DNA of 40,304 bases. Source: a virus. Shown in pieces: positions 1-24,837 of this stretch. Position numbers and translations under genes: made by a program. The first letter of the stretch is position 1. Every line of letters begins with the position of its first letter. The stretch is from positions 1 through 40,304 of IMG/VR virus record IMGVR_UViG_3300045988_041312. One strand, 5' to 3'. The notes under the pieces are model-generated. The model was not told where the DNA came from, made no database searches, and saw nothing but the letters and a program-made list of their open reading frames with translations.

Positions 1-99
1 CTTTTTTTTTATTATATGGATCACCTCCGGGCTATAACCCCGCCCAGGGACAGAGCCGCGATAGCAGCCCATACATCTCTTTGTCGCCTAATTACTACC
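1..99. repeat. 99-bp exact direct repeat, identical to 40206-40304 (terminal overlap of a circular or terminally redundant phage genome, or att duplication)
   Basis: Read directly: positions 1-99 (c, T9, attatatggatcacctccgggctataacc...attactacc) are identical to the last 99 nt of the window. The repeat is bounded exactly by both window ends. Confidence 0.9.
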
Positions 100-500: not shown

Positions 501-663
501 TTTGCCCCTTCTTTATTGATAAATCTCTCTTTTAAATGAGAATTCGCGCAAAAAGGCATAATAGACGCATTTTTATTAATTCCATGGCAAATTACTCATG
601 GACGATGCGAAAAACAAGCCCTATTTTGTGCTGATTTTAAGATTTTTGACATCTTCACAATTT

Positions 664-1263: not shown

Positions 1264-1573
1264 CTTCTACATCATCCTTTTCTTTAATTGCGGCATCTGG
1301 CCGGCCGTCATTATCCGTATCTATTAAGTACCTGGAAAGAAAACCTATTACTGCGCTGCTGGCTATCACGCTGTTAAAAAATTCCCGGAATTCTTCCAAA
1401 TCAGGTTTATGATTTATTACTGCATCTACGGTAAACCAGACAATAAAAAAGACAATAAAAAAGAAGATAAGAACTGCGTAAAGTCGTATGACTTCCATAC
1501 TCTCTCTTACCTTCTTTTTCTTTATTATTCTGGCCCCCGTCAATTTTCTAAGTGCTTTACTAAAAATTGACAA
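1238..1573 (-). CDS. Holin-like small membrane protein (XhlB-position), TTG start with strong AGGAGG SD
   Basis: Two hydrophobic TM segments (LYAVLIFFFIVFFIVWFTV and VIASSAVIGFL) and a charged C-terminus. Sits between the XhlA-like gene and the lysin. AGGAGGAAAATC precedes the TTG at 1573. Confidence 0.6.
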   Translation of the reverse strand: MSIFSKALRKLTGARIIKKKKVRESMEVIRLYAVLIFFFIVFFIVWFTVDAVINHKPDLEEFREFFNSVIASSAVIGFLSRYLIDTDNDGRPDAAIKEKDDVEDEVRNRCE

Positions 1574-1584
1574 GATTTTCCTCC

Positions 1585-1884
1585 TTACTTATGTGACAGG
1601 TAAATCCCCAGCGCGTTAATCAGCAGCCCTATAGCCGTACTGGTAACAGCTCCTACCTTAACCACCATGGCCTTAGATTCATCAATCCTGTCGTTCGCCC
1701 TGCATGCGTCCGCTTCAACTTTACTAACACGATCTGCGAGGCATTTAAGGTCATCGTCCATGGCCATCACTCGGGCGTTAGACCTCTCCAGTACCTCCAT
1801 CATAGTATCCAGCTTAGTTTCCACCCTGGTAAGGCGTTCGATGAGTTGTAAAATCAGCCTGTCATCGTGTGAAATCTGTTCCAT
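1585..1884 (-). CDS. XhlA-like lysis-associated protein (coiled coil with C-terminal TM). Start moved to the internal ATG at 1884, which has an AAGGAG SD.
   Basis: About 99 aa with an N-terminal coiled coil and a C-terminal hydrophobic anchor (AVTSTAIGLLINALGIYL). PBSX-like position before holin and lysin. SD aaaggagcg precedes the ATG. Confidence 0.6.
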   Translation of the reverse strand: MEQISHDDRLILQLIERLTRVETKLDTMMEVLERSNARVMAMDDDLKCLADRVSKVEADACRANDRIDESKAMVVKVGAVTSTAIGLLINALGIYLSHK

Positions 1885-1929
1885 GCATCGCTCCTTTTGT
1901 CCATAATAAAAAGACCGCAAAAGCAGTCT

Positions 1930-2481
1930 TTATAATTTCATGATGTAGCTCAGCGTGTAGTATGGGGGCATGTTGTTGTGCTTAACACCAGCACCTAAAG
2001 TGTTAGTCGTGAATGTGTGGTGGTGCCCTCCGGCTTTGCTTGTCCAGCCAACGCCATTTCCACCACTTGATTTATTGGTATCCCCATTTGAAAAATAGGC
2101 CGCACCATTGGTATTTTCTCCATCCCCACCATGACGTTGCGGAAGACTCATATTGTGATTGTGGTCTCCATCCCAACTAGTTGTTCCAGAGAAGCTATGT
2201 GGTGGAAGGTTATCCATAGAAAGCCCTGTAGATTCTTCCCCGCCAGTACTCCCAACATCATGAGAAGCAGAAGAACCAAGGATAAAGCGTCCTCTTAAAT
2301 CAGGCGTTCCATTAGTACCATCACACAAGTGCCATGTTGTGTCAGCGTTCCCAGTAGCTTTATCTATTGGATAACCATTAGAAAAATTACCAGAGAACGC
2401 AAGAATTGTTCCGGGTAACACTCCAGAATCAGCTCCAATTTTCTTTACTTTATATTTACAATTTCCATCTGTGTATTCCAT
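1930..2481 (-). CDS. Tail fibre accessory protein with phage tail collar domain
   Basis: Collar-domain pattern W.LCDG...PDLRGRF.LG...GGE...L....LPPH.H....H.H...NMPPYYTL.YI. Also a His-rich stretch, GGHHHTF. Confidence 0.65.
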   Translation of the reverse strand: MEYTDGNCKYKVKKIGADSGVLPGTILAFSGNFSNGYPIDKATGNADTTWHLCDGTNGTPDLRGRFILGSSASHDVGSTGGEESTGLSMDNLPPHSFSGTTSWDGDHNHNMSLPQRHGGDGENTNGAAYFSNGDTNKSSGGNGVGWTSKAGGHHHTFTTNTLGAGVKHNNMPPYYTLSYIMKL

Positions 2482-2497
2482 ATAACCTCCATTTCAT

Positions 2498-2992
2498 TTA
2501 AGCAGTGCGCTTCCATCTATGAATAACTTCATAAGGCATCATGTTGTTATGTGGCTGACCTCCACCAACAACTGACGTTGAGCCAGACCAGCTACGAGAA
2601 GCATCAAACTTAACCAACGATGTGAGAATAACTTCTCCGTCGCCGTTATCCCCACCGTCCTGAACTCCTCCGGTATTATCCCAGGTAAAGGCACCACTTT
2701 GATTTGTTTTAGTCTCCCCATAGGCCGACCCTACGGAGCCAGTAATATTCATACTGCCTCGAGTGTGAGAATGCGGAAAACTTTCACTCTCAGTGAGTTT
2801 ATGTTTTTCTTCACCACCCTTATCTCCGGCCTTGTAGACTGTCCCTGTGCTTGCCGTACCTGCGGATACCAGGACACGTCCTGCTTCCATGGCTTCCCAT
2901 GTCCCACCAAACAATACAGCAGGGGAAGTAGGGTCTGTAGATTCATAAATACTACCTACCGGATGTGCTGCAAGAATGGCCTGCCGGAACAT
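2498..2992 (-). CDS. Tail collar domain protein (paralogue of the C-terminus of the 4537..5469 product)
   Basis: HPVGSIY...LFGGTWEAM...YKAGDKGGEEKHKLTESE.P.HSHTRGSMNITG...FDASRSWSGSTS..GGGQPHNNMMPY closely parallels the C-terminus of the 310-aa fibre protein. Confidence 0.7.
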   Translation of the reverse strand: MFRQAILAAHPVGSIYESTDPTSPAVLFGGTWEAMEAGRVLVSAGTASTGTVYKAGDKGGEEKHKLTESESFPHSHTRGSMNITGSVGSAYGETKTNQSGAFTWDNTGGVQDGGDNGDGEVILTSLVKFDASRSWSGSTSVVGGGQPHNNMMPYEVIHRWKRTA

Positions 2993-3027
2993 GCTTTCAG
3001 TTTTAAACTTTAACGTGCCATCATCAT

Positions 3028-4527
3028 TTACCCCCCCATATTATTTTTAATGGTGTCCCAGTTCGGCTCATCCGCTCCAGTAGTTCCGGCTTGTGTTACC
3101 ACGATGATTGTTCCGTATGAGAGGTTCGGACTGGTAAGTACGTCACCTACGTTATATGCGGTATTCCTCTGTATGTAGTGATGTGCCTGGGCAATAGAAT
3201 CATCAATCTTTTTTGAGAGTTCCGTGTGTGCCACTCCCGCATCTTGCTTACTCTCTTTTTCTGCAATCAGATTTGTGATGGTAGTGGCAAAGTTTGGATC
3301 GTTGTTCAGGGCCTTTGCCAGTTCGTTCAGTGTGCTTAAGGTTTCCGGTGCGCTATCCACCAGATTTGCGATGGTGTTCTGTACGAATTCCGTGTTCGCA
3401 ATGGTCTTGCTCTTATTCCCTGCATTAGCCGTCGGGACGCTGGTTTCTCCGGTTGCTGTCAGAGTCGTGGTGGTAACGCCGTTCCCGTCTACGTTTATTT
3501 TGCCAGCGTTTAGCGCTGAAACCGTTAACCCGCCTGTCGTAGAGAAAAAATCCGGTTTATTCTTTATAAACGCTTTATCTGTAGTATCCGTCACATCCCA
3601 GTCCGCCTGCACCTGACCTGAGGCGATAGTATCCAATACCTTCTGCGCGCTTGCGGCACTCCTGGCCGCATTGTTCTCGCTAGTGGAAGCATTTCCAGCA
3701 GAAATGCTAGCCGCCTTAGCTGAATCCCCCGCCCGAGAGGCAAACGTACCGGCAGAGTTCGAGCTTTTTCCCGCATTTTGTGCCGATGCATCTGCCGCTT
3801 TAGCCGATTCAGCGGAAGCGGTTTCACTTGTCTTTGCGTTTGTTTCACTTATCTTTGCGTTATCAGCAGCTGTTTTAGCATTTGCTTCCAACGTGGTAAC
3901 ATTAGTTTCTTTAGCCGTCACCTGTTCCAGTACAGCCTTGATGGCTGCGTTATCAACTGTTACACTGGCGGCACTGGTTTCTGCGCGATTGGCAGCTGCC
4001 GTAGCGTCAGCCGCTGCCTTTTCTGCTTTATTTGATGCCTCAATGGTCTTTACTGTGTTATTTCCTACAAGCGCCACAATATCCGCCTCTTCCTTGGGAA
4101 GCGTTATAGTTACATCCGTGGCAGCGGAGAAGGAAATATACATCTTAAATTCGCACTCTACTGTCGCCCCATCGGCCTTACCTGGTACGTATGACGGATT
4201 TTCATCATACGACACCGCATACAGTATTTCCGTGTCCCCATCCATAGCGAAAAGCCCGAGCTCCGTCGCGTAAAATCCTTCATCTACAGCGTCAGATGAG
4301 ACTGATGCTGTAGCTATGCACACCGTACCATCTACGGTAGCGCTCTTTATGAGCATTCTATGGCGTACGCTTCGAAGGTCCGTCGCGTCTGCATACTCAT
4401 CCAGAGAATCGACTTGCCCCGCGCCAAGTACCATCTTAGTCAGTTTCAGCGTCCCCTTATTAGCCTCAATGTTGGCGTGCAGCGCTTTCCCTTTATTGGT
4501 TAAGAGATAACCGCTCTTAAAGTCCAT
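3028..4527 (-). CDS. Long tail fibre protein with Ala/Thr/Ser-rich coiled-coil repeats
   Basis: 499 aa. The N-terminal domain resembles that of the adjacent fibre. The central low-complexity region holds repeats NAKTSET/NAKISET, encoded by a 21-bp tandem DNA repeat at about 3822-3863. C-terminal globular domain. Confidence 0.7.
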   Translation of the reverse strand: MDFKSGYLLTNKGKALHANIEANKGTLKLTKMVLGAGQVDSLDEYADATDLRSVRHRMLIKSATVDGTVCIATASVSSDAVDEGFYATELGLFAMDGDTEILYAVSYDENPSYVPGKADGATVECEFKMYISFSAATDVTITLPKEEADIVALVGNNTVKTIEASNKAEKAAADATAAANRAETSAASVTVDNAAIKAVLEQVTAKETNVTTLEANAKTAADNAKISETNAKTSETASAESAKAADASAQNAGKSSNSAGTFASRAGDSAKAASISAGNASTSENNAARSAASAQKVLDTIASGQVQADWDVTDTTDKAFIKNKPDFFSTTGGLTVSALNAGKINVDGNGVTTTTLTATGETSVPTANAGNKSKTIANTEFVQNTIANLVDSAPETLSTLNELAKALNNDPNFATTITNLIAEKESKQDAGVAHTELSKKIDDSIAQAHHYIQRNTAYNVGDVLTSPNLSYGTIIVVTQAGTTGADEPNWDTIKNNMGG

Positions 4528-4536
4528 AACTCCTCC

Positions 4537-5469
4537 TTACTTTACACGATACCAAATATCTACAGCGGTAAACAATGGAAGCATAGGCATAGGCTGACTG
4601 CCACCCTCAATACTGGTTGTACCTGTCCACGAACGGGAAGCGTCAAATCCGATGATTGAATCTGGATCTGAAGAATTTTTAACCTTAGTGCCTCGTCGTC
4701 CTGTGTTATAAAATGCGCCTTCCGCCGTAGTCGGGAAATCATTGCTCCCCTCCCCAGTCGCGGAGAAAGCACCGGTGATATTCATTGAGCCTCGGGTATG
4801 CCCGTGACGCGGCATTTCCTTCCTATCAATCGAATGTTCTGACTCGCCCCCGGTGTCTCCGGCACTATATGTCTTTCCGTTGACTGTCCCTGAGGCCATG
4901 ATATATCGCCCGACTATCTGTTTCCATGTTCCGCCAAACAGAGTGGACGGGTCCTTTCCTCCGATATGCATGTACAAGCTTCCTACCGGGTGAGAGATAT
5001 CTATACATTCCCCACGGGTCACATATGTATCCATATCGATTTTGACAGTTACAACACCGGCGGACGCCGTGGTGATGTAAATTTTAGTCAGGATAGTTTT
5101 TACCGTGCCATCACTAAGAGCCGGCATCGTGTCCGGTTGAACCGCTGTCGAAATGGCAAAAAGATGTTCTTTCCCATTCCCATCTTCAGCGTAAACTCCG
5201 ATAGCCGTCATTGGATAGCTCTCGGTCAAGCCTACATTGGTGATGTTCACTTCAATCTTTGTCGTATTGTCATCGATGACATTAACACTTTGTACCTTGA
5301 ATTCCTGCTTTTTATCAAGTAAGTCGGAGAGGTTTGCAAGGTCTGCTTTAGAGTAATCGCCCGATGATGTTCTTATTCTTGTAATGGATATCGTGTCCGT
5401 TCCTGCTATCGCTCTGGCAAGAAGCGCGCGTCCTTCAGCAGTTGCCACATAGTTATTCCAAGTTGCCAT
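4537..5469 (-). CDS. Tail fibre protein with N-terminal baseplate-attachment domain and C-terminal tail collar domain
   Basis: XkdV-position after the XkdU-like gene. C-terminal HPVGSLY..LFGGTW..YSAGDTGGESEHSI..EMPRHGHTRGSMNITG...FDASRSWTGTTS is the collar/MdpB-like motif. Confidence 0.75.
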   Translation of the reverse strand: MATWNNYVATAEGRALLARAIAGTDTISITRIRTSSGDYSKADLANLSDLLDKKQEFKVQSVNVIDDNTTKIEVNITNVGLTESYPMTAIGVYAEDGNGKEHLFAISTAVQPDTMPALSDGTVKTILTKIYITTASAGVVTVKIDMDTYVTRGECIDISHPVGSLYMHIGGKDPSTLFGGTWKQIVGRYIMASGTVNGKTYSAGDTGGESEHSIDRKEMPRHGHTRGSMNITGAFSATGEGSNDFPTTAEGAFYNTGRRGTKVKNSSDPDSIIGFDASRSWTGTTSIEGGSQPMPMLPLFTAVDIWYRVK

Positions 5470-6100
5470 CAGTTTCTCCTTTCAATTCCAAAACTTCTTC
5501 GGTTTCCATTGCCATTCCAATATATATAGCCGACCGGTCATCTAAATTATCCGCGGTAGCAGGATATATTATCGTTGCTTTCTTAAATCGTCTATTCAAT
5601 CCGAGATGAATCACATCCCTAGGCTCTATCCTGTATCTTGCCTTTACCGTCAAATTTGCAGGTGCCGTGATTCGGCTATACCGCCATATGCGCACGGTCT
5701 TTTCACTGGGAACGCTTTTCTGTACATCCAGTATCAATTCGTATTCATTTGGCGTAACTATCGGATATACAGAATCCTTCCCATATGTATTATCAAAGAA
5801 AATCTTTAAGGCCCTTTCGGTATATGGGGTTCCCCCGGTTACCGTAAAGAATATGGCTGCCTGACGTTCTTCCAACGTGGCATCCTTTTCGGGCACTATA
5901 CTGAGCATGCTTTCCCACCGCTCCACGCCTTCCAGATCTGTGGAAAAAATAAAGGTGTTGGAAAACCACTTCCAGAAGGCCTCGTATAAAAGTTTGAATT
6001 CCGGATTTTCGGCTTCTGCCAATACCTTGAATTCCTTTGCCGGAGCTACCACAGAAGGATAATAGCGTTCAACGTGTGCGTCCCTTTCTATCTTCTTCAT
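5453..6100 (-). CDS. XkdU-like baseplate/tail protein (DUF2313/YmfQ-like, tail protein I-like)
   Basis: PBSX synteny immediately after the baseplate J gene. About 215 aa, as is typical. Confidence 0.6.
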   Translation of the reverse strand: MKKIERDAHVERYYPSVVAPAKEFKVLAEAENPEFKLLYEAFWKWFSNTFIFSTDLEGVERWESMLSIVPEKDATLEERQAAIFFTVTGGTPYTERALKIFFDNTYGKDSVYPIVTPNEYELILDVQKSVPSEKTVRIWRYSRITAPANLTVKARYRIEPRDVIHLGLNRRFKKATIIYPATADNLDDRSAIYIGMAMETEEVLELKGETDGNLE

Positions 6101-7212
6101 GCCGTACCCCCTGAAATATCTGATATTGCACCAACGGTGGCAAGTTCGTTGCTCTTAAGTTCTATATTTTCTTCTGCCCCATTCAGTGTCGTATGCGAAA
6201 TGTCGGCTACATAAGATTTCTGAAGCAGGCGTGATTCTATTTGCGATATGCGAACGATAATGCCCCTGTTCTCGTATTTCGTGACGGATACCACTTCCGT
6301 ATCCTGCCATGAGGCATTAAGCTCCTCAAAGTAATCGCTGATGACCTTCGTCATATCGTCCTTATAATCAGCAAAAGTTCCTCCTTCACTGAATTTTATG
6401 TTAAGCCCAATATTGATTGCGGAGGTACCAGCACCTTCCACGGTGACCCGATGACCGATAGGGGCGATACCTACACCATTCTGCGCATAAGGAACTGGGT
6501 CGATTAATTCCTGCACTTCCTTAACAAATTCTGATTCCGGTACCTTGTTTTCAGATGTGGAGAATACCACTTTTACGGTTCCTCCTCCATTCCAAACCGG
6601 GTAGACCTTAACCCCTCCAACGCCCTGAATCTCTCCTACCTTTTTCTGATAGTCTGCGATATTTCCGCCATACGCCTGCGTTTCAAAAGACTTTAGGTAT
6701 CTTTCACGGAAAGCTTCCGTCTCTTCTTCGTCTTCCCCAGGCTGTATGACACTTACAATTTCGGCGTGCTGGAGTCCAGGAACATAGGTTATCGGTACGG
6801 CCTTACCGCTTGCCTTATTACCTTTGATTCCTGGCGTTTCGCACCGGGCCTTAAACTGGTTAGCGCCATCGAGCTGCCCGATAATGATATAATTCACATC
6901 GTCTACACTATATCGGCTCCCTATGGGCAGAATACAGTCAGCCGGAGTGCTCTGAATCGTCACAATGGCGTTGGTTGCTTCGTAGGGGGACAGGCCTCTT
7001 TCCTTAGCTCGTTCTATCAGGTATTCACGATCGGCTGTATCACCAAACGTATTTTTAAGGAAATAATCGACTACAGAGTAAAGAAGCATGAATTCGATAG
7101 CCGCCGGCATAGTCGCATCATAAGCAATCGAACCCTCCCGCTTATCTATGCTTTTAGGCATACTGTCCAACATTCGCTTTTCTATAACCTGCTCGGTCTG
7201 ATTTTCAAACAC
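6097..7212 (-). CDS. Baseplate J-like protein (XkdT-like)
   Basis: 371 aa in the conserved position between the XkdS-like and XkdU-like genes. Start ATGA overlaps the upstream gene end. Confidence 0.7.
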   Translation of the reverse strand: MFENQTEQVIEKRMLDSMPKSIDKREGSIAYDATMPAAIEFMLLYSVVDYFLKNTFGDTADREYLIERAKERGLSPYEATNAIVTIQSTPADCILPIGSRYSVDDVNYIIIGQLDGANQFKARCETPGIKGNKASGKAVPITYVPGLQHAEIVSVIQPGEDEEETEAFRERYLKSFETQAYGGNIADYQKKVGEIQGVGGVKVYPVWNGGGTVKVVFSTSENKVPESEFVKEVQELIDPVPYAQNGVGIAPIGHRVTVEGAGTSAINIGLNIKFSEGGTFADYKDDMTKVISDYFEELNASWQDTEVVSVTKYENRGIIVRISQIESRLLQKSYVADISHTTLNGAEENIELKSNELATVGAISDISGGTA

Positions 7213-7636
7213 GTATACGCACCTCCTTTTCTACCTCCAAATCGCCATAAATAGTTACCACGGTAAATTTCGCAGTCACATTCCCGTCCTTTGTATAAGA
7301 CAAATCAAAATTAATGACATCATTTATCCGGTCATCCTGTATGAGCGCCTCACGGATCCTGCGTGGTATTTCGGGTAAAACATATGGGATAGGCTTTCCG
7401 AACAAGTCTTCCAGCTCTACCCCATAATTCCAGCTATAAATAACGTATTTATATCGCTCTGTATTTAAAATCTTATACACGGCCTGTCTTACCGCGTCCA
7501 GTTCATTTGTGATGTTTCCTTCAATCCGTTCTTCTTCGATACGCATCTTATAGGTCTTATTCGGGTAAGTTTCCTGTGTACTTACCTGAATCGTAGTTCC
7601 ATTAGGCGTATTTGAAGCATCCGGAAGTAAAGCCAT
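7205..7636 (-). CDS. XkdS-like baseplate protein (DUF2634, gp25/W-like size class)
   Basis: 143 aa. PBSX synteny. Confidence 0.55.
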   Translation of the reverse strand: MALLPDASNTPNGTTIQVSTQETYPNKTYKMRIEEERIEGNITNELDAVRQAVYKILNTERYKYVIYSWNYGVELEDLFGKPIPYVLPEIPRRIREALIQDDRINDVINFDLSYTKDGNVTAKFTVVTIYGDLEVEKEVRIRV

Positions 7637-7640
7637 CTAA

Positions 7641-8048
7641 TCACCCCCATTGCCCGGATAAGCCGGCATGGTTGGTAATCCGTGACAGTACACAGTATTG
7701 CTGTCCTCCCTGCTGGCGAATCATAATCACTACCTCGCCGGGCTTAAGCCCGTTATATACTCTGATTTTTTTACGGCCCTTATAGTCGTGGTTATGACTG
7801 GCAAATTCAGCATCGCCACCGCCACCAGCGCGGTTCTCGGTTCGATGGTTTACTTCGATATCCACGTCATAATCCCGGACAGCATCTGTAAAAATCAGAA
7901 ACTCGCTGGTTATCAGGTCCTTCTGATTGACACGAATAGTCACAGGATTACTGCTTTCCACTGTTCCCAGTATATAGTCCCCCATCCGCATGCCGTTTAC
8001 GGTCTGAGAAATAACCGCCTGCAGAGTCTGATATAACTTGGTATTCAA
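7641..8048 (-). CDS. XkdR-like tail/baseplate protein (DUF2577-like)
   Basis: 135 aa. PBSX synteny between the XkdQ-like and XkdS-like genes. Confidence 0.5.
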   Translation of the reverse strand: MNTKLYQTLQAVISQTVNGMRMGDYILGTVESSNPVTIRVNQKDLITSEFLIFTDAVRDYDVDIEVNHRTENRAGGGGDAEFASHNHDYKGRKKIRVYNGLKPGEVVIMIRQQGGQQYCVLSRITNHAGLSGQWG

Positions 8049-8053
8049 TCACA

Positions 8054-9541
8054 TCACCCCTTAGACGTTTTAATAATTTTAGTCGGTGTTAAGCCTTTAA
8101 TGTTGTAGCTATGGCCATGAACCACTCTGTTCTTACTGGAGGAATTGCCATAATAGCCGCCATGACCATCATAAATCACTACATGCGAGTTATTACCGTA
8201 TACGATAGAATCGCCAGCCTCCAGGCTTCCCGCGTTAAAGGGCAGCACCTGAATACCGCTGCTTCTCGCATCGGACACCAGGCCACGTACACTGTATACG
8301 TGCTTCTGGCTTTCCGCCTTAAGGAATGGGCTGTAATACGAGCCAATCTTTCCGGCCGCTTCCGCGCATCCTTTTGACCCGTTGGCCATGGTTTGGCCAA
8401 GATAGGCATTAGCGCCTGTGCTTAGACCAGCGGAAACTTTAGAGCCTCCAGATTTAGCGGCCCCACCTCCAGGGCTTCCCCCGCCACCGCTGCCATTACT
8501 AATACCGGTTATCTTATCGCCTATCACATCCATATCCATAGTGTGTTCATGATTTGAAAAGGTATGTACCACGTTCTGCACGATAAGCCGTTTAGCTTGT
8601 GTATCATCCTGCTCCCACCCGGTTTCGCCTAGATTGATATTAATCCAGAGCATCGAACCGCCACGGATAGACAGATCACCGGCTGCGCCTTTAATGGATA
8701 ACGTGCGGCTTATCCGATTAAAGTGCTTAAGATAACTGTCCGCAAGCTGCCTGGGGTTCTGATTCTTTGCGTTCACGCTGGCGTGATACTGCAGCACGCC
8801 CCACTGTTTCCGGCTTTCTGACGCCTCATATTCCTTAGCCGTAGCCGGGGCATAAATCGTCTTATGCCCGTTATCGCCGTCATCTACATCCAGTTTGATG
8901 AGATTATAAGTTCCTTTATCAATGGTGCCGGTATAGGAATAATCCTGCGCTGTTTCCGCGTCAATCAGCAGATTGCTCTGCATCTCTTCCAGGTCTTTCA
9001 GCATCAACTTTCCGCAGTCATCATACAACGTGAAAAGTCGGTCGGTATGAATCATAGTAAGGTCCAGCGCATTCTGACACATATCAAGGACTGACGCATT
9101 GGCTTCCCGCCGTTTGTCTATCACATACCCGGTATCATCCAACTCCCCTACCAGTAATTCGAAGTCCTCTGCCAGTTCCTTAATCACTTCGGAAGCCTTC
9201 TTCCCCGTATAGGAAAAAGTATCCTTATTCAACAGATACCGCATCTGATCATAGGCGATGATATCCCAGTACTGGTCCTTGCCACGACGCATCTCAAAGA
9301 TAAAGCCGTGAAAAAACTGTTTTCCGTTCCATGACACATCAATGGTGTCACCGTACTCCATCTTCAGTGTCTCATCACGGACTAGCTTACAGGTCAGCTT
9401 TCCCGGGGCGCCTACCCAGTGCAGTTCCCATTTTGCGCCGTCAAAAACAGACGGAACAAAGTACTCTCCCGTCTTTTTATGGTAGATAACCGCGGCGAGC
9501 CCTTCAGTTTCGCCTCCGGTATATTGATTAAGCGTAATCAA
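8054..9541 (-). CDS. XkdQ-like tail hub protein (late control D-like) fused to a C-terminal CHAP/NlpC-P60-type peptidoglycan hydrolase domain
   Basis: About 330-aa N-terminal body in the XkdQ position. Gly-rich linker GSGGGGSPGGG. C-terminal Cys (GSKGCAEAAG) and His (VVIYDGHGGYYG) are spaced as in CHAP cysteine-histidine peptidases. Confidence 0.65.
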   Translation of the reverse strand: MITLNQYTGGETEGLAAVIYHKKTGEYFVPSVFDGAKWELHWVGAPGKLTCKLVRDETLKMEYGDTIDVSWNGKQFFHGFIFEMRRGKDQYWDIIAYDQMRYLLNKDTFSYTGKKASEVIKELAEDFELLVGELDDTGYVIDKRREANASVLDMCQNALDLTMIHTDRLFTLYDDCGKLMLKDLEEMQSNLLIDAETAQDYSYTGTIDKGTYNLIKLDVDDGDNGHKTIYAPATAKEYEASESRKQWGVLQYHASVNAKNQNPRQLADSYLKHFNRISRTLSIKGAAGDLSIRGGSMLWININLGETGWEQDDTQAKRLIVQNVVHTFSNHEHTMDMDVIGDKITGISNGSGGGGSPGGGAAKSGGSKVSAGLSTGANAYLGQTMANGSKGCAEAAGKIGSYYSPFLKAESQKHVYSVRGLVSDARSSGIQVLPFNAGSLEAGDSIVYGNNSHVVIYDGHGGYYGNSSSKNRVVHGHSYNIKGLTPTKIIKTSKG

Positions 9542-16574: not shown

Positions 16575-17600
16575 TTAGACTCCTCTTTTAAGATACTTTT
16601 TTTCCCACTGTGAATAGGTCATCTCTTCGGTCTTACTGCCCTTACCTGTGTCCGGGTCTCTGGCCCATCGCGTTGTATCGTTATCCTCATAATAAGGAAC
16701 CAGAGTACAGCGGCAATGGGGGTGCATGGGCGGGGCGTTTACCCCGGGTTCCAGATATTTGCGTTCAATCACGGAGCCATCAAGCTCTCCGCACGTACCA
16801 CATGTGTGCATTTCCAGAGTGGCCACGTACTCCATCTTATCGACTCCCAGTTTGTCCGCCGTCTCGAGGTCTGCTAGTGTCTGCGCATAGGTGCATTCGG
16901 TCTGTACAAGCCTTGTGGCCTGATAAAGCCCTACACCCATTTCTTTCGCCAGTCGTTTTCCGGCATCCACCGGGGTATCCCCACGCACCAGCATCCGTAC
17001 CAGTTCACCCTGCAGCTTACCTGCCAGGGCTTCCCTATTCTGCCACAATCTGTCAGACCAGTTATGGCCATCCGCTGTCCATGGTTTGAAAAGTACCTTA
17101 TCTACTGCATCATCAGGTATCTCCGAAAATGAGGAGTATTTCCCTTCTGCCTGTTGCCTGAGATATTCATTATGATAGGTCTCATCCGTATAGGTATCCC
17201 GCAAGGCCTGCGCCGTCACATCCTCCGTCTCATGATACAACTCATACAGCTTATTCCGTATGGAAAGCTCCAGCTGTTCCAGTCGGGAGATATGCACTCG
17301 GGCGCTGGCCGCCGCGAGCTCCTTTTCCCATCTGCCATCCTTATTTTCCCGCGCCTTCTTCTCGAATTCCTTCAAGGACATTCGAAGCGCCTTCATGTCA
17401 CGGGTATCCAGCAGACGGTGGGCTTCCTGCAGAGTCACGCCCTGCTCCCTTGCAAAGCGGGCATACCAGGCCAGTATATCGTTTTCGACATCCCTTATGG
17501 CGCGCTCCCAGTATTCAGCGAGTTCCTCGGTCATGTCATCAATGCGCTTATGCTGCGCCTTCTGCTGTTCCAGAGCCCGCCTTTTCCAGTAATCGCTCAT
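16575..17600 (-). CDS. Head morphogenesis protein, Mu F / SPP1 gp7 family
   Basis: Motifs NWSDRLW and PPMHPHCRC are characteristic of the MuF family. Confidence 0.8.
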   Translation of the reverse strand: MSDYWKRRALEQQKAQHKRIDDMTEELAEYWERAIRDVENDILAWYARFAREQGVTLQEAHRLLDTRDMKALRMSLKEFEKKARENKDGRWEKELAAASARVHISRLEQLELSIRNKLYELYHETEDVTAQALRDTYTDETYHNEYLRQQAEGKYSSFSEIPDDAVDKVLFKPWTADGHNWSDRLWQNREALAGKLQGELVRMLVRGDTPVDAGKRLAKEMGVGLYQATRLVQTECTYAQTLADLETADKLGVDKMEYVATLEMHTCGTCGELDGSVIERKYLEPGVNAPPMHPHCRCTLVPYYEDNDTTRWARDPDTGKGSKTEEMTYSQWEKKYLKRGV

Positions 17601-20863: not shown

Positions 20864-22108
20864 TCACCTCCTCAAAATCTTAAGCCGTGATCTTGCCATC
20901 AGGTTCATGCACGCATACCGCGTGGCGTCTATGGCATGGTTGTTCTTATCCGGATAGGCCGATATATACTGCCCGTCCCGGGTCTGTTCATATTCGTAAC
21001 AGACGAATTCCCGATAGGTGTTCGGGCATCGTCTTTTGTCAATGTAAATCTTATTAAGCGACTGGAGCCATTTAATGCCATAGTCGACACTGTCGGGGCC
21101 TTTTCTCGCTCCTATGACATTCAATCCGTAGCCCCTGAGTTCAGCTATACTCTTAGGTTCCGCAGAGTCAGCGATTATCGGGCGCCTTTCTGCCCGTTGG
21201 ATAAGCATGTCAAATGCCCGCCGGTTGGTAAGCTTCGGCTGGTATATCTCATCAAAGATATACAGCTCTTCCCGCTTGGCGTCATAGTGCATCGCCACAA
21301 AGGCCAGCGGGTCCACGGCAAAACCAAAGTCAAGGCCGTAGTGGAGCTTATCAAATAGCGGAATTAACTCCGTCATATCCTTATCTTCCACATTCTCAAA
21401 CACACTTCCGCCAGTTCCGGTCACTTCTCCCAGATACTCATGACGATAGGCCCTTTCATTTCGAATCTTGAGCTTTTCCGCATCCTCAAAGAACTGCGGG
21501 CCCAGCCATTCACGGGGAACACCGCGATAATCAGAATGATGATACAGGCGGTCCACATCCTCCGCCAGCATTTCCTCATTTACCCAGTTATCCCGGGATT
21601 TAGGCGGGTTATAGGAAGCAAAGCACCAGAAACGCGGACCGCCTCGAAGCAGTGACTGATTGACATTTCGGATTTCTTCCATACCGGAGAATTGGTCCAA
21701 TTCTTCGTACCATACAATCCCTACATAGCCGTGTGGCATTTTCAGGGACTTCAGTTTGCTCTTATCATCCACCCCCAGAAATATAATCTTCTGGCCTGTC
21801 TGCCGGTGTACCATTTCCAGCGGATTAATCTTCCTTTTCCATAGATGAGCTATCCCCAGTGTATCCATCGCCCATTCCATCTGCTGATACACAGAATTCC
21901 GAAGGGTGTTTCCTACCTTTCGCAGTATCACCGCATTACACTCAGGATGTTGAATAAGCAGAAGTGGAATCTCCAGTGATACATAGGATGATTTAGTACT
22001 GCCACGGCCTCCGCCTAGCACATAATAGGTGTGCCCGTGCTTCTTTGCGTCCTGATGTACTTTCCAGAAGGGCTGTGCAATGAGATTACTCAACCTGATT
22101 CGTATCAT
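20864..22108 (-). CDS. Terminase large subunit (PBSX/XtmB-type)
   Basis: Walker A YVLGGGRGSTKS near the N-terminus. 414 aa with a C-terminal nuclease region. Upstream of the portal gene. Confidence 0.85.
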   Translation of the reverse strand: MIRIRLSNLIAQPFWKVHQDAKKHGHTYYVLGGGRGSTKSSYVSLEIPLLLIQHPECNAVILRKVGNTLRNSVYQQMEWAMDTLGIAHLWKRKINPLEMVHRQTGQKIIFLGVDDKSKLKSLKMPHGYVGIVWYEELDQFSGMEEIRNVNQSLLRGGPRFWCFASYNPPKSRDNWVNEEMLAEDVDRLYHHSDYRGVPREWLGPQFFEDAEKLKIRNERAYRHEYLGEVTGTGGSVFENVEDKDMTELIPLFDKLHYGLDFGFAVDPLAFVAMHYDAKREELYIFDEIYQPKLTNRRAFDMLIQRAERRPIIADSAEPKSIAELRGYGLNVIGARKGPDSVDYGIKWLQSLNKIYIDKRRCPNTYREFVCYEYEQTRDGQYISAYPDKNNHAIDATRYACMNLMARSRLKILRR

Positions 22109-22490
22109 CGACTATAGTCACCCCTTCCACACCAGACTCCGCCTGGTCTCGTTCCATCATCTTTTCCTTCATCCGAAGTTCCTTCTGCTTCAGTTTCAAT
22201 TCCGGAGATTCTCCCAGTAAGTCAAAAAGCAGTCTCGCCATATTGGCATTACTTCCAGCCTTTCGTACAATCCCATGCAGCACCATTCCGCCATAGGTAG
22301 CCTCGAACCCGTCTTTTATCAGTCGTTCCTTAATCCGCGGATCCGCCACCGGCTGAGATACAACCACCTTAAGCTGTGATACCAGGGCCTTCCGGCTCCG
22401 TTTGGACTTTCCGGAATTTATGCCGCCTTTCCGTCCATTCCTTCTCGCTTCCTCTGTCGTTCTAAAAGATTTTAAGTTTTCATTGTTCAT
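22086..22490 (-). CDS. Putative terminase small subunit
   Basis: 134 aa, basic N-terminus (RRNGRKGGINSGKSKRSRK), overlaps the terL start by 23 nt. Confidence 0.55.
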   Translation of the reverse strand: MNNENLKSFRTTEEARRNGRKGGINSGKSKRSRKALVSQLKVVVSQPVADPRIKERLIKDGFEATYGGMVLHGIVRKAGSNANMARLLFDLLGESPELKLKQKELRMKEKMMERDQAESGVEGVTIVDDTNQVE

Positions 22491-22504: not shown

Positions 22505-23272
22505 CTAATCTAAAACATTGGTAAATCGATAATGATATTTCTTCTGATTTCTTTTCAGCCATTTATCCACTGCGTCATCATAATTCTTTCCTCTTGGGCG
22601 GGCCCTCTTTATGGCGCGTGTAAATTTTTCCGCGTCGAAGTGGGACATCTTCGTAAATATGCGGTACCCCTTAGGATGTGTAGCCACAACCCCGCGGGCG
22701 TTGCTGCGTGCTGTATTGATTAAGTCCCCATCCGAAAAAGAGCCTCCACTTGGGTGATTATGTACAATTAGATCTCCGGAGCGCGCTGGACCTATGGCCA
22801 CAGAATGCGCCATCCCATGTACAAGACTATTCGTATAGCCCTCCTGTCCGATAGAAATACCATGTTCTATTTCTGAATTCCCATATGCCTTTCTAAAGGC
22901 AGCGATTGCGCCTTCTGGCGTCTTAGTTTTGGTCGCTACGTTCATTCTTGCTGGATAGTCGCTTTTATCCGTACGCGGACCACCTCCCTCAGACGCATGC
23001 CCGAATTTATACACCTGCCCGCTCCCGGCACCTCTTCCACCATCCAGCCGACTATCCACTGTGTCAAGGCATTCAATCAGTTCCTTTACTGTCTTATCCC
23101 CCGCTGGCTTATACGGAAACACAACATGTAAAGAGTCGAATTCTTTTTCTTCATCCGTTTCAGAGTTCCACACGCACCATCTGCCGTGTTTACGCTTAAA
23201 CAGGTAAATTCCGCCGGGTAACTCCGCAAAATGGTAATCCACCATTTTAATCTCAAATGTACGTAAATCCAT
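22505..23272 (-). CDS. JAB/MPN (RadC-like) metalloprotease-motif protein with N-terminal unknown domain and Gly-rich linker. First gene of the putative late operon.
   Basis: LIVHNHPSGGSFSDGDL fits the JAMM H-x-H-x6/7-S-x2-D motif, with an upstream Glu (SEIEHG). Linker LDGGRGAGSGQ. Confidence 0.5.
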   Translation of the reverse strand: MDLRTFEIKMVDYHFAELPGGIYLFKRKHGRWCVWNSETDEEKEFDSLHVVFPYKPAGDKTVKELIECLDTVDSRLDGGRGAGSGQVYKFGHASEGGGPRTDKSDYPARMNVATKTKTPEGAIAAFRKAYGNSEIEHGISIGQEGYTNSLVHGMAHSVAIGPARSGDLIVHNHPSGGSFSDGDLINTARSNARGVVATHPKGYRIFTKMSHFDAEKFTRAIKRARPRGKNYDDAVDKWLKRNQKKYHYRFTNVLD

Positions 23273-23321
23273 ATCGTTTCTCTCGCTTTACTTTATGCAC
23301 AAAATTCTATATAATATAAAT

Positions 23322-23381
23322 AAAAGAGATAGAATTGCGACCTCTGCCCATTATTGGCGGGGGCGACGGGTTCTATCTCTT
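23322..23381. promoter_or_regulatory. Perfect 12-bp inverted repeat (aaagagatagaa ... ttctatctcttt) separated by 36 nt, followed on the minus strand by a T-rich tract. Terminator and/or regulatory site preceding the late operon.
   Basis: Read directly from the sequence. Overlaps the stop codon of the 23373..23810 gene. An AT-rich stretch with TATAAT-like motifs follows towards 23300. Confidence 0.5.
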
Positions 23382-23810
23382 TTTGTATTTTTTATCGATT
23401 GCAAGCTTGCCGTCACGAACAACAATTATGCGAATAGCATTTTCGGGATGCCTACGAACTCTATTATCCATTATCTCTATTAGCTTCGATTTATCCAACG
23501 TCGCCCCAGCATAGTCCAATATAAGCCCCCCAGGATTCTCTTTTATTTGTTTAACCCCATGACGTATAGCCCCGTCAGCGGCCTTTTCGTTGGATATAGT
23601 TTTAAGGTCCCAATATTTACCGTTCCACAGATAGTCCGGATTCTTTTTAGCTACTCCTTTTTGGTCATTTATAACTCTAATAGACCCGCCAAAATTTTCA
23701 TAAAGCCAGTGTGCCATAGCGATTTCCGCTTTATGTCTTCCAATTTTCAGTCTTGTATCAAGGAAAACCCCGCCGGATTCACGCCCACTGCTTGCGCCTC
23801 TACCACCCAT
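23373..23810 (-). CDS. Small putative PD-(D/E)xK-fold nuclease-like protein with Gly-rich N-terminus
   Basis: NPDYLWNGKYWDLKT gives a PD ... D-x-K arrangement. N-terminal MGGRGASSGRESGG resembles the linker of the neighbouring JAB-like gene. Start overlaps the upstream gene by 11 nt. Confidence 0.4.
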   Translation of the reverse strand: MGGRGASSGRESGGVFLDTRLKIGRHKAEIAMAHWLYENFGGSIRVINDQKGVAKKNPDYLWNGKYWDLKTISNEKAADGAIRHGVKQIKENPGGLILDYAGATLDKSKLIEIMDNRVRRHPENAIRIIVVRDGKLAIDKKYKKR

Positions 23811-24837
23811 TCTGCCCCCATTTCTCCGTTACCGCATTATTAATATATACGGCCTTACAGGGGAATTTATAGCCGATATCGCCGCCATAGACCAGCACAC
23901 AGGAAGGCGTCAGTCGCTTTATTGCTTCATCCATGCCATGCGTCCATACCTTCGTGGCCTCTTCGTCCTGCTTCACGCCAATGGTAGAGACACTGACCAC
24001 ACCGCCGGGCTCTATCCCGTCAAAGCAAAACTGGAATGTAGCTTCCTCTGCCCACGACAGCGTGGGTATGACTTTAGCGCCTAAATCCTGGCATATCTGC
24101 CCGATAAGCCGGGAACGGTACACGTTCCATATCTTCATGGCCATAGGCATATCCAGATACAGGCTGAAATCCGGAGTCAATACATAATCGAACGCTGCCA
24201 GTTTTCCACAGTACATTTCCGGGTAGTTCCATACCCTTTCAAACTGGTAATCATCCACATAGAAATGAACGCCCATGCCCTTTTCTGGTTCCGTTGTCAG
24301 CATGTAATTAAAACCGATAAGCTTAGACGGACAGGAACGACATTTCCGGATAATCGGCATCTGGTAGAATCCGGCGGTCCGCATCGGGTCGAAGTCATCC
24401 AGATTATAGGCGTCAAAGGTTCGTTCGCGTTCGTCGCCATAATACCCGTCATCTTCTGTTTCTAATGCGGGAAGCTCAAAATCGAATCCACTCATATCAA
24501 TATCAGTTATGCCCTCCAGCTCATCCGCCAGAAGCACATCATCCCATTGCGACTTTTCTGACACCTTGTTATCGGCCAGCCGGAACGCCTTAATCTGCTG
24601 CGGGGTAAGATCATCCGCCACAATGCACGGAACCGATGTAAGCCCCAGGGACTTAGCCGCCTGATATCTTGTATGGCCGGTCACAATCACATTATGCCGG
24701 TCAATCACAATCGGGACCTTGAATCCGAATTCCCTAATACTGTTAGCCACAAAAGGAACAGCGGCCTTGTTCTTTCTTGGGTTTGCTGCATACGGCACAA
24801 GCTCCGTAATGCTTTTTTCTACCACACGCAACGCCAC
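23800..24837 (-). CDS. ParB-like nuclease domain protein with C-terminal domain of unknown function (possibly DUF4417-like)
   Basis: N-terminal LVPYAANPRKN...FGFKVPIVIDRHNVIVTGHTRYQAAKSLGLTSVPCIV is the ParB/Srx fold signature. C-terminal region FYVDDYQFERVWNYP...VLTPDFSLYLDMP. Confidence 0.7.
   Translation of the reverse strand: MALRVVEKSITELVPYAANPRKNKAAVPFVANSIREFGFKVPIVIDRHNVIVTGHTRYQAAKSLGLTSVPCIVADDLTPQQIKAFRLADNKVSEKSQWDDVLLADELEGITDIDMSGFDFELPALETEDDGYYGDERERTFDAYNLDDFDPMRTAGFYQMPIIRKCRSCPSKLIGFNYMLTTEPEKGMGVHFYVDDYQFERVWNYPEMYCGKLAAFDYVLTPDFSLYLDMPMAMKIWNVYRSRLIGQICQDLGAKVIPTLSWAEEATFQFCFDGIEPGGVVSVSTIGVKQDEEATKVWTHGMDEAIKRLTPSCVLVYGGDIGYKFPCKAVYINNAVTEKWGQNGW

What the first reader, a model, noticed from the sequence alone, without database searches (positions are those of the whole stretch)
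22505..24837. Uncharacterised three-gene accessory cluster at the early/late boundary: ParB-nuclease fusion, PD-(D/E)xK-like mini-protein and JAB/RadC-like protein sharing a GGRGA(S/G)SG linker
The three consecutive genes between the late activator and terS are 23800..24837, 23373..23810 and 22505..23272. The first has a ParB/Srx nuclease domain fused to a domain of unknown function. The second is a 145-aa protein whose only recognisable feature is a PD...D-x-K nuclease-like motif (NPDYLWNGKYWDLKT), preceded by MGGRGASSGRESGG. The third is a 255-aa protein with an unknown N-terminal domain, a linker LDGGRGAGSGQ and a C-terminal JAMM-like H-x-H...S-x-x-D motif (HNHPSGGSFSDGD). The Gly-rich GGRGA motif recurs in two neighbouring proteins and begins one of them exactly. 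That pattern is unusual. It resembles the linkers that precede toxin or cargo domains, or a shared processing or recognition site. The JAB-like gene starts the late transcript just upstream of terS. A 12-bp inverted repeat separates it from the nuclease-like gene. No standard phage function needs this combination, so it is a candidate undescribed nuclease/peptidase auxiliary system (anti-defence, DNA processing for packaging, or a processed cargo).
Basis: partly seen in the sequence, partly recalled or inferred. Interest (0 to 1): 0.7.

Follow-up and report, generated by a model that had tools for sequence, protein, structure and literature searches.

The report
Glycine-tailed phage cargo proteins with DUF4417
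The three genes are one copy of a widespread, undescribed phage module in which an enzyme-like protein of unknown function (DUF4417) sits beside interchangeable toxin or enzyme proteins that all begin with the same short glycine-rich tail, probably a handle for loading them into the virus particle or onto its DNA.

Summary
All three ORFs exist. GGRGA(S/G)SG occurs twice against 0.01 expected. A is ParB_N+DUF4417, B is a PD-(D/E)XK CdiA_C tRNase-type toxin domain, and C is a JAB/MPN+ metallopeptidase.

The interpretation needs re-centring. The motif is not a JAB cleavage linker. It is an N-terminal tag.
- Across 278 related loci, 230 distinct proteins in 43 unrelated clusters begin M-GGRG(A/S/G)SSG. 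These include ADP-ribosyltransferase, glutamine-deamidase, CdiA_C and JAB domains and a common 130-aa family.
- In 17 cases the tag follows a host Prp-protease leader (…NLQFF|GGRG). The mature N-terminus is therefore always GGRG.
- The tag's constant partner is DUF4417, not the JAB. DUF4417 is present in 46 of 49 tag-selected loci, at a median distance of 110 nt. Conversely, 70 of 80 DUF4417-selected genomes carry a tagged gene.
- The module almost always lies just upstream of terminase.
- B's toxin domain elsewhere sits on MuF-type capsid carrier proteins, so the tag looks like an alternative delivery device.

The parts
23800..24837 (-). Gene A: ParB_N-DUF4417 fusion protein (345 aa). It is the conserved partner of the tagged genes. 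Its stop overlaps the start of B by 11 nt.
   Evidence: Pfam DUF4417 4.4e-69 and ParB_N 5.2e-7. phrog_940. More than 7,700 homologues. AF2 pLDDT 84.9.
24589..24816 (-). ParB/Srx-fold N-terminal domain of A (residues 8-83).
23854..24381 (-). DUF4417 domain of A (residues 153-328), an alternating beta/alpha TIM-like barrel. Invariant residues across 17 diverse members are H191, D196, Y197, F199, W203, the P222-D223-F224-S225 motif, Y227 and S284.
23373..23810 (-). Gene B: a tagged toxin, 145 aa. It consists of M + GGRGASSG + a CdiA_C (PD-(D/E)XK clan, tRNase-type) toxin domain.
   Evidence: Pfam PF18451 3.9e-9. Clan and prototype from PMC9990079. Invariant D59, K65, K70, R83 and H84. Of 50 relatives scanned, 45 match CdiA_C and carry it at the C-terminus; 30 of them have MuF, VG15 or minor-capsid-2 carriers.
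23784..23807 (-). GGRGASSG tag of B (residues 2-9), directly after the initiator Met.
   Evidence: The same start is seen in 213 distinct proteins of related loci.
23322..23383 (-). Hairpin with a perfect 13-nt outer stem. It overlaps the last codons and stop of B and is followed by a U-rich tract, so it is terminator-like.
   Evidence: inverted repeat. (RNA fold -24.4 kcal/mol, z -4.33).
22505..23272 (-). Gene C: a 255-aa protein (phrog_5057) made of a 77-aa N-terminal cap domain, the GGRGAGSG tag and a JAB/MPN+ metallopeptidase domain.
23042..23272 (-). N-terminal cap domain of C (residues 1-77). In other phages it is a separate gene that ends exactly before the tag.
23018..23041 (-). Internal GGRGAGSG tag of C (residues 78-85), in a disordered segment.
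   Evidence: pLDDT below 50 for residues 78-84. G78, G79 and G81 at least 90% conserved..
22724..22762 (-). JAMM-type metal-binding motif H171-N-H173-P-S-G-G-S-F-S180-D-G-D183 of C. The upstream catalytic-type residue E136 is encoded at 22865-22867.
22086..22490 (-). Small terminase-like gene immediately downstream (context: the module is placed directly before the packaging genes).
   Evidence: phrog_2412. Position conserved in relatives.
20864..22108 (-). Large terminase (context).
   Evidence: Pfam Terminase_3 and Terminase_3C. TerL lies downstream of DUF4417 in 118 of 125 loci.
16575..17600 (-). MuF/SPP1-gp7 minor capsid protein without a C-terminal toxin domain (context: this is the usual carrier of B-type toxin domains in other phages).
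   Evidence: Pfam Phage_Mu_F and NCBIfam phageSPP1_gp7. MuF is 344-632 aa in relatives.

Best explanation
The three genes are one instance of a widespread late-gene module of Bacillota and Actinomycetota phages.

The module consists of:
- a DUF4417 protein, here fused to a ParB/Srx-fold NTP- or DNA-binding domain; and
- one or more 'GGRG-tailed' cargo proteins.

The cargo proteins share only an eight-residue tail, GGRG(A/S/G)(S/A/G)(S/G)G. This tail is their mature N-terminus. It is exposed by initiator-Met removal or, in some phages, by the host Prp protease cutting a …(D/N)LQxF| leader. Behind the tail sit interchangeable effector domains.

In this phage the two cargos are:
- B, a PD-(D/E)XK tRNase-type toxin domain that other phages carry on MuF minor-capsid proteins; and
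- C, a JAB/MPN+ metallopeptidase. C's tail is masked by a 77-aa cap domain that other phages encode as a separate gene. The cap probably has to be removed, possibly by C's own JAB domain.

I infer that the tail is the handle through which DUF4417 binds or modifies these proteins. They would then be loaded with the DNA by the adjacent terminase/portal machinery and delivered into the next host. There they would act as early effectors (toxin, peptidase, ADP-ribosyltransferase and so on).

Shown: domain identities, protein-level conservation of the tail, its N-terminal position, the polymorphism of the cargo, the tight two-way linkage to DUF4417, and the position next to terminase.

Inferred: that DUF4417 acts on the tail, that the proteins are packaged or injected, and that C is processed.
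For: Domain identities.

The tail is conserved as protein, not as DNA. Synonymous codons vary freely (GGC/GGT/GGA; AGA/CGT/CGC).

The tail is N-terminal.
- 213 distinct proteins have a start codon directly before GGRG.
- 17 have a Prp-type leader (MIDINLQFF|GGRG, MKIDLQLF|GGRG and others). The published Prp motif is MLxx(D/N)LQ(F/L)F' (PMC9405229).
- The split C-family gene starts at TTG, with a GGAGG Shine-Dalgarno sequence, directly before GGRG.
- 15 C-family members start M-GGRG.

The cargo is polymorphic.
- There are 43 clusters.
- Pfam hits are ADPrib_exo_Tox, ART, Gln_amidase, CdiA_C and DUF6883.
- Tandem arrays reach 4-5 tagged genes.

Linkage to DUF4417 holds in both directions.
- 46 of 49 tag-selected loci with enough flank have DUF4417 on the same strand, at a median of 110 nt.
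- 70 of 80 DUF4417-selected genome loci from many genera have a tagged gene, a phrog_9479 gene or a C-family gene.
- There are 85 tags within 2 kb of DUF4417 against 3 elsewhere, a 34-fold difference in density.

Placement and delivery logic.
- TerL lies downstream in 118 of 125 loci.
- In one lineage the module sits between portal and MuF (L131).
- The same toxin domains ride on MuF, VG15 or minor-capsid carriers elsewhere.
Against: - There is no direct evidence that DUF4417 touches the tail or that tagged proteins enter virions.
- In phage Str01 neither the DUF4417 protein nor the phrog_9479 homologue was among the 12 proteins detected by virion mass spectrometry (PMC6195288). That survey was shallow.
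- About 10 of the 80 DUF4417-selected loci show no tagged gene.
- In 46 C-family proteins, including this window's, the tag is internal and no processing is demonstrated.
- No immunity gene for toxin B is visible.
- A terminator-like hairpin after B suggests that B could be a moron-like insertion.
Confidence: 0.55

Rival explanations
1. The tail is a capsid- or portal-targeting peptide read by structural or packaging proteins, like the T4 capsid-targeting sequence. DUF4417 is an unrelated DNA-modifying or DNA-processing enzyme that merely shares the pre-terminase slot.
For: - The module always lies next to terS/terL/portal.
- B-type toxins normally use capsid carrier domains.
Against: - The linkage is specifically to DUF4417 and holds across very different terminase, portal and capsid types and genera.
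- It also holds in a Hungatella element where no terminase gene is called within about 6 kb on either side.
- Gene starts often overlap the DUF4417 stop by a conserved 11 nt.
- Virion mass spectrometry of Str01 did not detect the tagged protein.
Confidence: 0.2
2. One reading: the three genes form a nuclease/peptidase system in which the JAB protein cleaves at the GGRGA site of itself and of its neighbour.
For: - C has a complete JAMM motif and fold.
- Its tag lies in a disordered stretch between two packed domains (pTM 0.84).
- The cap domain is a separate gene in other phages and ends exactly at the tag, so cis-processing of C is plausible.
Against: - Most tagged genes have no JAB gene nearby: 11-12 of 118 tag-selected loci and 16-18 of 80 DUF4417-selected loci have a C-family gene.
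- In B the tag is preceded only by Met, so there is nothing to cleave.
- Known JAMM enzymes cut after Gly-Gly, but the conserved mature end starts with Gly-Gly.
- JAB domains themselves occur as tagged cargo (L007, L225, L227).
Confidence: 0.08
3. The shared tail has no function of its own. It is a relic of common descent or a recombination handle that lets cassettes swap behind the DUF4417 gene.
For: - The cargo is cassette-like and often in tandem arrays.
- The first codons overlap the 3' end of DUF4417.
- B is followed by its own terminator-like hairpin.
Against: - Synonymous positions are scrambled, so there is no DNA-level handle.
- Only 3 codons overlap DUF4417, yet 8 residues are conserved.
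- The tag is kept in genes that do not abut DUF4417.
- Two different routes (Met removal, Prp leader) converge on the same mature N-terminus. That indicates selection on the protein end.
Confidence: 0.05
4. Anti-defence decoy. The MGG… tails mimic the N-terminal glycine motifs of CdnD (type IV CBASS) or QatB and titrate host QueC-like or TGT-like enzymes.
For: Those host substrates begin M(G/S)G(G/S)GG or MGTS and need a free G2 (10.1101/2025.04.06.647259; PMC13279940).
Against: - This does not explain the obligate phage-encoded DUF4417 partner, the late or packaging position, or the toxin cargos.
- The invariant Arg at tail position 3 is absent from the host motifs.
Confidence: 0.04

Closest known systems
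MuF polymorphic toxins of temperate phages (Jamet et al. 2017, PMC5576092) and the wider polymorphic-toxin architecture (Zhang et al. 2012, PMC3482391)
   Same: - A conserved N-terminal delivery module is followed by highly variable C-terminal toxin domains.
- The very same toxin families occur (CdiA_C, ADPrib_exo_Tox, Gln_amidase).
- The genes are phage late genes near the head or packaging genes.
   Different: - Here the conserved part is only an 8-residue glycine-rich N-terminal tail, not a roughly 300-aa MuF domain.
- It is tied to a separate DUF4417 gene.
- No adjacent immunity gene is seen for B.
- Many cargos are not recognisable toxins.
- The window's own MuF protein carries no toxin.
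Type IV CBASS Cap9/Cap10-CdnD N-terminal deazaguanylation (Wassarman et al., bioRxiv 10.1101/2025.04.06.647259) and QatBC (PMC13279940)
   Same: - A partner protein has a flexible glycine-rich extreme N-terminus (MGGSGG… there, MGGRGASSG here) that needs the free Gly after Met removal.
   Different: - No QueC-like gene was found in 2.75 Mb of related loci or in the window.
- DUF4417 shows no sequence-profile similarity to Tgt or to PADLOC models.
- This is a phage late module, not a defence operon.
- The tail has an invariant Arg.
Capsid-targeting sequence of T4 internal proteins, and Prp-processed capsid and scaffold proteins of staphylococcal phage 80alpha (PMC9405229)
   Same: - A short N-terminal signal is shared by unrelated proteins destined for the head (the T4 part rests on my own knowledge).
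- The host Prp leader …NLQFF| is used by some tagged proteins.
   Different: - The T4 signal is removed by the prohead protease, whereas here processing exposes the tag instead of removing it.
- No prohead protease gene is present in this phage.
Polyvalent proteins of phages and conjugative elements (Iyer et al. 2017, PMC5512222)
   Same: The same toolkit (ParB-like, RadC/JAB, ART, MuF, peptidases) is proposed to be delivered with the DNA as early effectors.
   Different: Here the domains are separate small proteins unified by a tag, not fused in one giant polypeptide. Neither DUF4417 nor the tag is mentioned in that work.

Membership tests
JAB/MPN+ (JAMM) metallopeptidases - gene C | Catalytic motif E…HxHx7Sx2D | tested here: met
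   E136, H171, H173, S180 and D183 are invariant in 30 homologues. The H-to-S spacing is 6 residues rather than 7, a minor deviation.
JAB/MPN+ (JAMM) metallopeptidases - gene C | MPN fold | tested here: met
JAB/MPN+ (JAMM) metallopeptidases - gene C | Match to curated family HMMs (Pfam JAB, RadC, Prok-JAB) | tested here: not met
   No Pfam family at E<=1. Only a chimeric homologue, P0013, carries PF04002.
JAB/MPN+ (JAMM) metallopeptidases - gene C | Zn-dependent (iso)peptidase activity | not testable with these tools
   Needs biochemistry.
CdiA_C (PF18451) PD-(D/E)XK tRNase toxins - gene B | HMM match above the curated cutoff | tested here: met
   37.0 bits against 26.6, residues 56-135. 45 of 50 relatives also match.
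CdiA_C (PF18451) PD-(D/E)XK tRNase toxins - gene B | Conserved acidic and Lys catalytic residues | tested here: inconclusive
   D59, K65, K70, R83 and H84 are invariant, but D68 is N in P0003. No structure was predicted. There is no PDB sequence hit.
CdiA_C (PF18451) PD-(D/E)XK tRNase toxins - gene B | Cognate immunity gene immediately downstream | tested here: not met
   There is no ORF between B and C, only a hairpin.
MuF polymorphic toxins | N-terminal MuF (PF04233) carrier fused to the toxin | tested here: not met
   B has only the 8-residue tag. The window's MuF (16575..17600) ends 40 aa after the MuF domain.
DUF4417 (PF14386) - gene A | HMM match | tested here: met
   232 bits, E 4.4e-69.
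ParB/Srx N-terminal fold - gene A | HMM match and fold | tested here: met
tRNA/DNA-guanine transglycosylase superfamily (TGT, DpdA, Cap10) - DUF4417 domain | TIM-barrel fold specifically closest to TGT enzymes | tested here: inconclusive
tRNA/DNA-guanine transglycosylase superfamily (TGT, DpdA, Cap10) - DUF4417 domain | Sequence-profile homology to TGT | tested here: not met
   hhalign probability 0.3% against E. coli Tgt. No Pfam TGT hit. No PADLOC hit.
Type IV CBASS-like N-terminal deazaguanylation system | QueC-like conjugating enzyme encoded with the substrate | tested here: not met
   phmmer with E. coli QueC found nothing at E<=0.01 in 284 loci (2.75 Mb). No queuosine genes in the complete phage genome.
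Type IV CBASS-like N-terminal deazaguanylation system | Substrate with a conserved M-G-G… extreme N-terminus on a flexible tail | tested here: met
   MGGRG(A/S/G)SSG in 213 proteins. Compare M(G/S)G(G/S)GG.
Prp-processed proteins | Leader matching (D/N)LQ(F/L)F' directly before the mature N-terminus | tested here: not met
   Not present in the window. Met in 17 tagged relatives, which shows what the mature end is.

The most novel reading that the evidence does not exclude
DUF4417 is a transglycosylase-like enzyme that uses the free alpha-amine of the Gly-Gly-Arg-Gly tail. The tail might be coupled either directly or after coupling to a host-made nucleobase. The enzyme would attach cargo proteins covalently to a base position in nucleic acid, most plausibly the phage DNA held by the ParB domain. 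Toxins and enzymes would then be threaded into the capsid by the terminase and injected as DNA-protein conjugates. This would be a phage counterpart, and a possible evolutionary source or target, of the Cap9/Cap10 N-terminal deazaguanylation chemistry. It would also be a new way of delivering proteins between cells.
Probability: 0.13. Interest if true: 0.95.

Novelty: new variant of a known kind. Interest (0 to 1): 0.8.

Why it matters
- DUF4417 is a very large phage family with no known function. More than 7,700 clusters were scored in a capped search, and it is present in model phages such as S. pyogenes A25.
- This analysis gives DUF4417 a concrete, testable partner: a short N-terminal tail shared by dozens of unrelated late proteins, including bona fide interbacterial toxin domains.
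- If the tail is a delivery tag, it defines a second, minimal route, besides MuF fusions, by which gut and streptococcal phages carry effector proteins. That has consequences for lysogen competition, anti-defence and transduction biology. It could also offer an 8-residue tag for loading foreign proteins into phage particles.
- If DUF4417 modifies the tail, it extends the newly found chemistry of N-terminal glycine conjugation from bacterial immunity to phages.
- There is a practical point as well. Genome annotation often misses the tag because the true start overlaps the DUF4417 gene (A25 gp23 and Str01_54).

Tried and rejected

2. Programmed frameshift fusing A to B. The B frame reads …NGGRMGGRG upstream. 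There is no support: a stop lies 7 codons upstream, and the 11-nt overlap with a G-rich ribosome-binding site is an ordinary coupled start, conserved in relatives.

3. DNA-level recombination handle. Rejected by synonymous-codon diversity.

4. JAB as the universal partner. Rejected by co-occurrence counts.

5. Sequence evidence for TGT homology of DUF4417. hhalign, Pfam and PADLOC were all negative. Foldseek against the PDB gave only ParB hits.

6. Search for QueC or Tgt genes near the module. None found.

7. PDB sequence searches for B, C and phrog_9479. Nothing useful.

8. Literature searches for the motif, DUF4417 and TGT-like phage proteins. No description was found. Jamet 2017 mentions no linker, orphan module or JAB.

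9. Virion proteomics of Str01. The tagged protein was not detected, but only 12 proteins passed the filters.

10. Prp-type leaders in the window itself. None.

11. A structure of B was not predicted.
Full report
**1. What is in the window**

The window is a complete 40,304-bp contig of a temperate phage with a contractile tail. It encodes:
- a serine recombinase and an S24 repressor;
- DNA polymerase A, a VapE-like primase and an SNF2 protein;
- a sigma-like late activator;
- terS, TerL, an SPP1-type portal, a scaffold protein, a Gp13-like capsid protein and MuF;
- a sheath and baseplate, and a GH25 lysin.

The closest DUF4417 relatives in genomes come from Lachnospiraceae MAGs.

- **Gene A** (23800..24837) is ParB_N + DUF4417.
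- **Gene B** (23373..23810) starts MGGRGASSG and matches Pfam CdiA_C above its cutoff. The prototype of that family is the Burkholderia 1026b CdiA-CT tRNase of the PD-(D/E)XK clan (PMC9990079).
- **Gene C** (22505..23272) has no Pfam hit, but it belongs to phrog_5057 and to a family of more than 125 proteins of about 255-265 aa.

The motif's DNA pattern occurs twice, against 0.01 expected.

**2. Gene C**

E136, H171, N172, H173, P174, S180 and D183 are invariant in 30 homologues. The GGRG glycines are at least 90% conserved at 35-50% identity.

The AlphaFold model (pLDDT 88.5, pTM 0.84) has two packed domains joined by a disordered segment that contains the motif.

**3. The motif is an N-terminal tag on many unrelated proteins**

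In a Hungatella element, the gene after the C homologue starts (GTG)GGRGSSSG and carries a second JAB-like domain. A DUF4417 gene follows.

In 80 IMG/VR loci found with the C family, neighbouring ORFs repeatedly start MGGRGASSG.
- Most belong to a roughly 130-aa family, phrog_9479.
- Others carry ADPrib_exo_Tox (E 4e-17) or the papain-fold Gln_amidase toxin (E 2e-12).

Pooling all loci gives 230 distinct tagged proteins in 43 clusters that are unrelated after the tag. Pfam recognises ADPrib_exo_Tox (3 clusters), ART, Gln_amidase, CdiA_C and DUF6883; the rest are unknown. Tandem arrays of up to 4-5 tagged genes occur (L167).

Synonymous codons in the tag vary freely, so selection acts on the peptide.

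**4. The tag is the mature N-terminus**

- 213 proteins have ATG, GTG or TTG directly before GGRG.
- 17 instead have a short leader ending …(D/N)(L/I)Q(x)F directly before GGRG. Examples are MEKNMIDINLQFF|GGRGSSSG, MKIDLQLF|GGRGADL and MRMNLQFF|GGRGAGSG. This is the cleavage motif of the host cysteine protease Prp, MLxx(D/N)LQ(F/L)F' (PMC9405229).

Two different maturation routes thus converge on a free Gly-Gly-Arg-Gly end.

The C family fits the same pattern:
- 46 members have the cap domain fused in front of the tag;
- 15 start M-GGRG;
- one has a Prp leader.

In the L073-L089 lineage the cap is a separate ORF that ends where the tag would begin. The JAB ORF then starts at a TTG preceded by GGAGG, directly before GGRGANA. 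C is therefore itself a tagged cargo whose tag is masked in this phage.

**5. The constant partner is DUF4417, not the JAB**

| Locus set | Result |
|---|---|
| C-family loci | DUF4417 present in 72 of 80, usually immediately upstream; terS/TerL/portal/MuF follow |
| 118 tag-selected loci | 100 contain DUF4417; only 11-12 contain a C-family gene |
| Tag-selected loci with at least 2.5 kb on both sides | 46 of 49 have DUF4417 on the same strand; median distance 110 nt |
| 80 genome loci selected only by DUF4417 | 70 carry a tagged gene, a phrog_9479 homologue or a C-family gene |

The DUF4417-selected genome loci come from Lachnospiraceae, Veillonella, Streptococcus, Limosilactobacillus, Bifidobacterium, Coriobacteriia and others.

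In those loci, tag density is 85 within 2 kb of DUF4417 against 3 elsewhere. TerL lies downstream in 118 of 125 loci. The start of the first tagged gene often overlaps the DUF4417 stop by the same 11 nt as in the window.

Cultured phages carry the pair:
- S. pyogenes A25 has gp22 and gp23;
- Str01 has genes 53 and 54.

In both, the annotated start of the tagged gene lies 27 nt downstream of the MGGRG start codon, so the annotation omits the tag.

**6. Gene B in context**

A full-library search found 638 clusters with B's domain. In almost all of the best 150 the domain lies at the extreme C-terminus of a longer protein, commonly 350-600 aa, and the match begins at B's residue 12 or so, just after the tag.

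Of 50 scanned, 45 match CdiA_C. The N-terminal parts are Phage_Mu_F (13), VG15 (9) or Phage_min_cap2 (8). B is thus the toxin module of MuF-type phage polymorphic toxins, transplanted onto the tag.

The window's own MuF protein has no toxin. No immunity gene follows B. Instead a hairpin of -24.4 kcal/mol (z -4.3) with a U-rich tail overlaps its stop. This suggests a cassette with its own terminator.

**7. What DUF4417 might be**

AlphaFold (pLDDT 84.9) gives a ParB/Srx domain plus an alternating beta/alpha barrel-like domain. Invariant acidic and aromatic residues sit after the strands: H191, D196, the PDFS motif at 222-225, and S284.

This matters because of what is known about type IV CBASS. 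There the TGT-like Cap10 binds the N-terminus of CdnD, which begins M(G/S)G(G/S)GG. After Met removal, the QueC-like Cap9 conjugates that N-terminus to a 7-deazaguanine. The conjugate appears poised for transfer to an unknown target (10.1101/2025.04.06.647259). QatB/QatC behave similarly (PMC13279940).

The parallel is a glycine-rich free N-terminus paired with a TGT-like barrel. The support is thin:
- Foldseek gives no TGT hit;
- hhalign against E. coli Tgt is null;
- PADLOC is null;
- no QueC or Tgt homologue occurs in 2.75 Mb of related loci or in this phage.

I therefore treat 'DUF4417 acts on the tail' as the best-supported inference from genetics. I treat 'it does so by transglycosylase-like conjugation' as a minority hypothesis.

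From my own knowledge, N-terminal residues exposed by Met removal are used as nucleophiles on DNA C1' by Fpg (Pro), T4 endonuclease V (Thr) and SRAP/YedK (Cys). The chemistry is therefore not implausible.

**8. Verdict**

The proposed JAB-cleavage system is not the best reading.

What is there is an undescribed, widespread module:
- a DUF4417 protein plus proteins carrying the GGRG tail;
- placed directly before the packaging genes;
- with polymorphic effector cargo that elsewhere uses MuF capsid carriers.

Searches for the motif, for DUF4417 and for related terms found no paper that describes it.

The main uncertainties are these:
- whether tagged proteins are packaged or injected (one shallow virion proteome did not see one);
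- what DUF4417 does;
- whether C's cap is removed.

Noticed in passing
window 23322-23383 (minus strand): A strong hairpin overlaps the stop codon of B and is followed by UUUUAUUUAU. It has a perfect 13-bp outer stem, -24.4 kcal/mol and z -4.3. It looks like an intrinsic terminator that came in with the toxin cassette, but the consensus terminator scan missed it.
   Followed up: partly
L292 (phage A25, NC_028697.1) 4001-4411; L293 (Str01) 1501-1911: In both cultured streptococcal phages the annotated start of the tagged gene (A25 gp23, STR01_54) lies 27 nt downstream of the ATG that precedes GGRGASSG. Public annotation therefore drops the tag. The true start overlaps the DUF4417 gene.
   Followed up: partly
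L007-L010 (Hungatella element), about 1-9200: A C-family gene, an MGGRGSSSG-led JAB paralogue and a stand-alone DUF4417 gene sit beside a 190-aa integrase-like gene. No terminase gene is called within about 6 kb on either side. Upstream is a pair consisting of an ADP-ribosyltransferase toxin and an ADP-ribosylglycohydrolase. This may be a satellite or a decayed prophage that keeps the module.
   Followed up: partly
L167 8262-11475; L135, L166, L203: Tandem arrays of three to five consecutive tagged genes lie between DUF4417 and TerL. Each has a different C-terminal module. The layout resembles the orphan-cassette arrays of polymorphic toxin loci.
   Followed up: partly
L131 2843-7266; L098, L106, L124: In another phage lineage the module is ordered tagged gene, phrog_9479, DUF4417, tagged JAB-like gene. 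In L131 it lies between portal and MuF, inside the head-gene block, rather than before terS.
   Followed up: no
window 22001-22012 and TerL genes of many loci: The TerL Walker-A loop reads GGGRGS(T/G)KSS. It is a recurrent false positive for the GGRG motif and had to be filtered out of the counts.
   Followed up: yes
P0013 (homologue of C, 232 aa): This is a chimera. It is identical to the C family up to HNHPSG and then switches to a canonical RadC C-terminus (ICTPSSEDD…), with a Pfam RadC hit. It is either a natural recombinant or an assembly artefact, and it links the C family to RadC-type JAB domains.
   Followed up: no
window 16575-17600 versus MuF genes in L013-L015 and L073-L089: The MuF minor capsid protein is 341 aa here but 500-632 aa in related phages. 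Those phages probably carry MuF-fused toxins in addition to tagged cargo, while this phage has only the tagged toxin.
   Followed up: no
phrog_9479 family (e.g. L024 1138-1527): The commonest tagged protein is about 130 aa and has no known function. It contains a conserved His-rich block, DLxHxHxGxxPHxHxGYxH, which suggests metal binding. It is absent from this window, where B occupies its usual slot.
   Followed up: no
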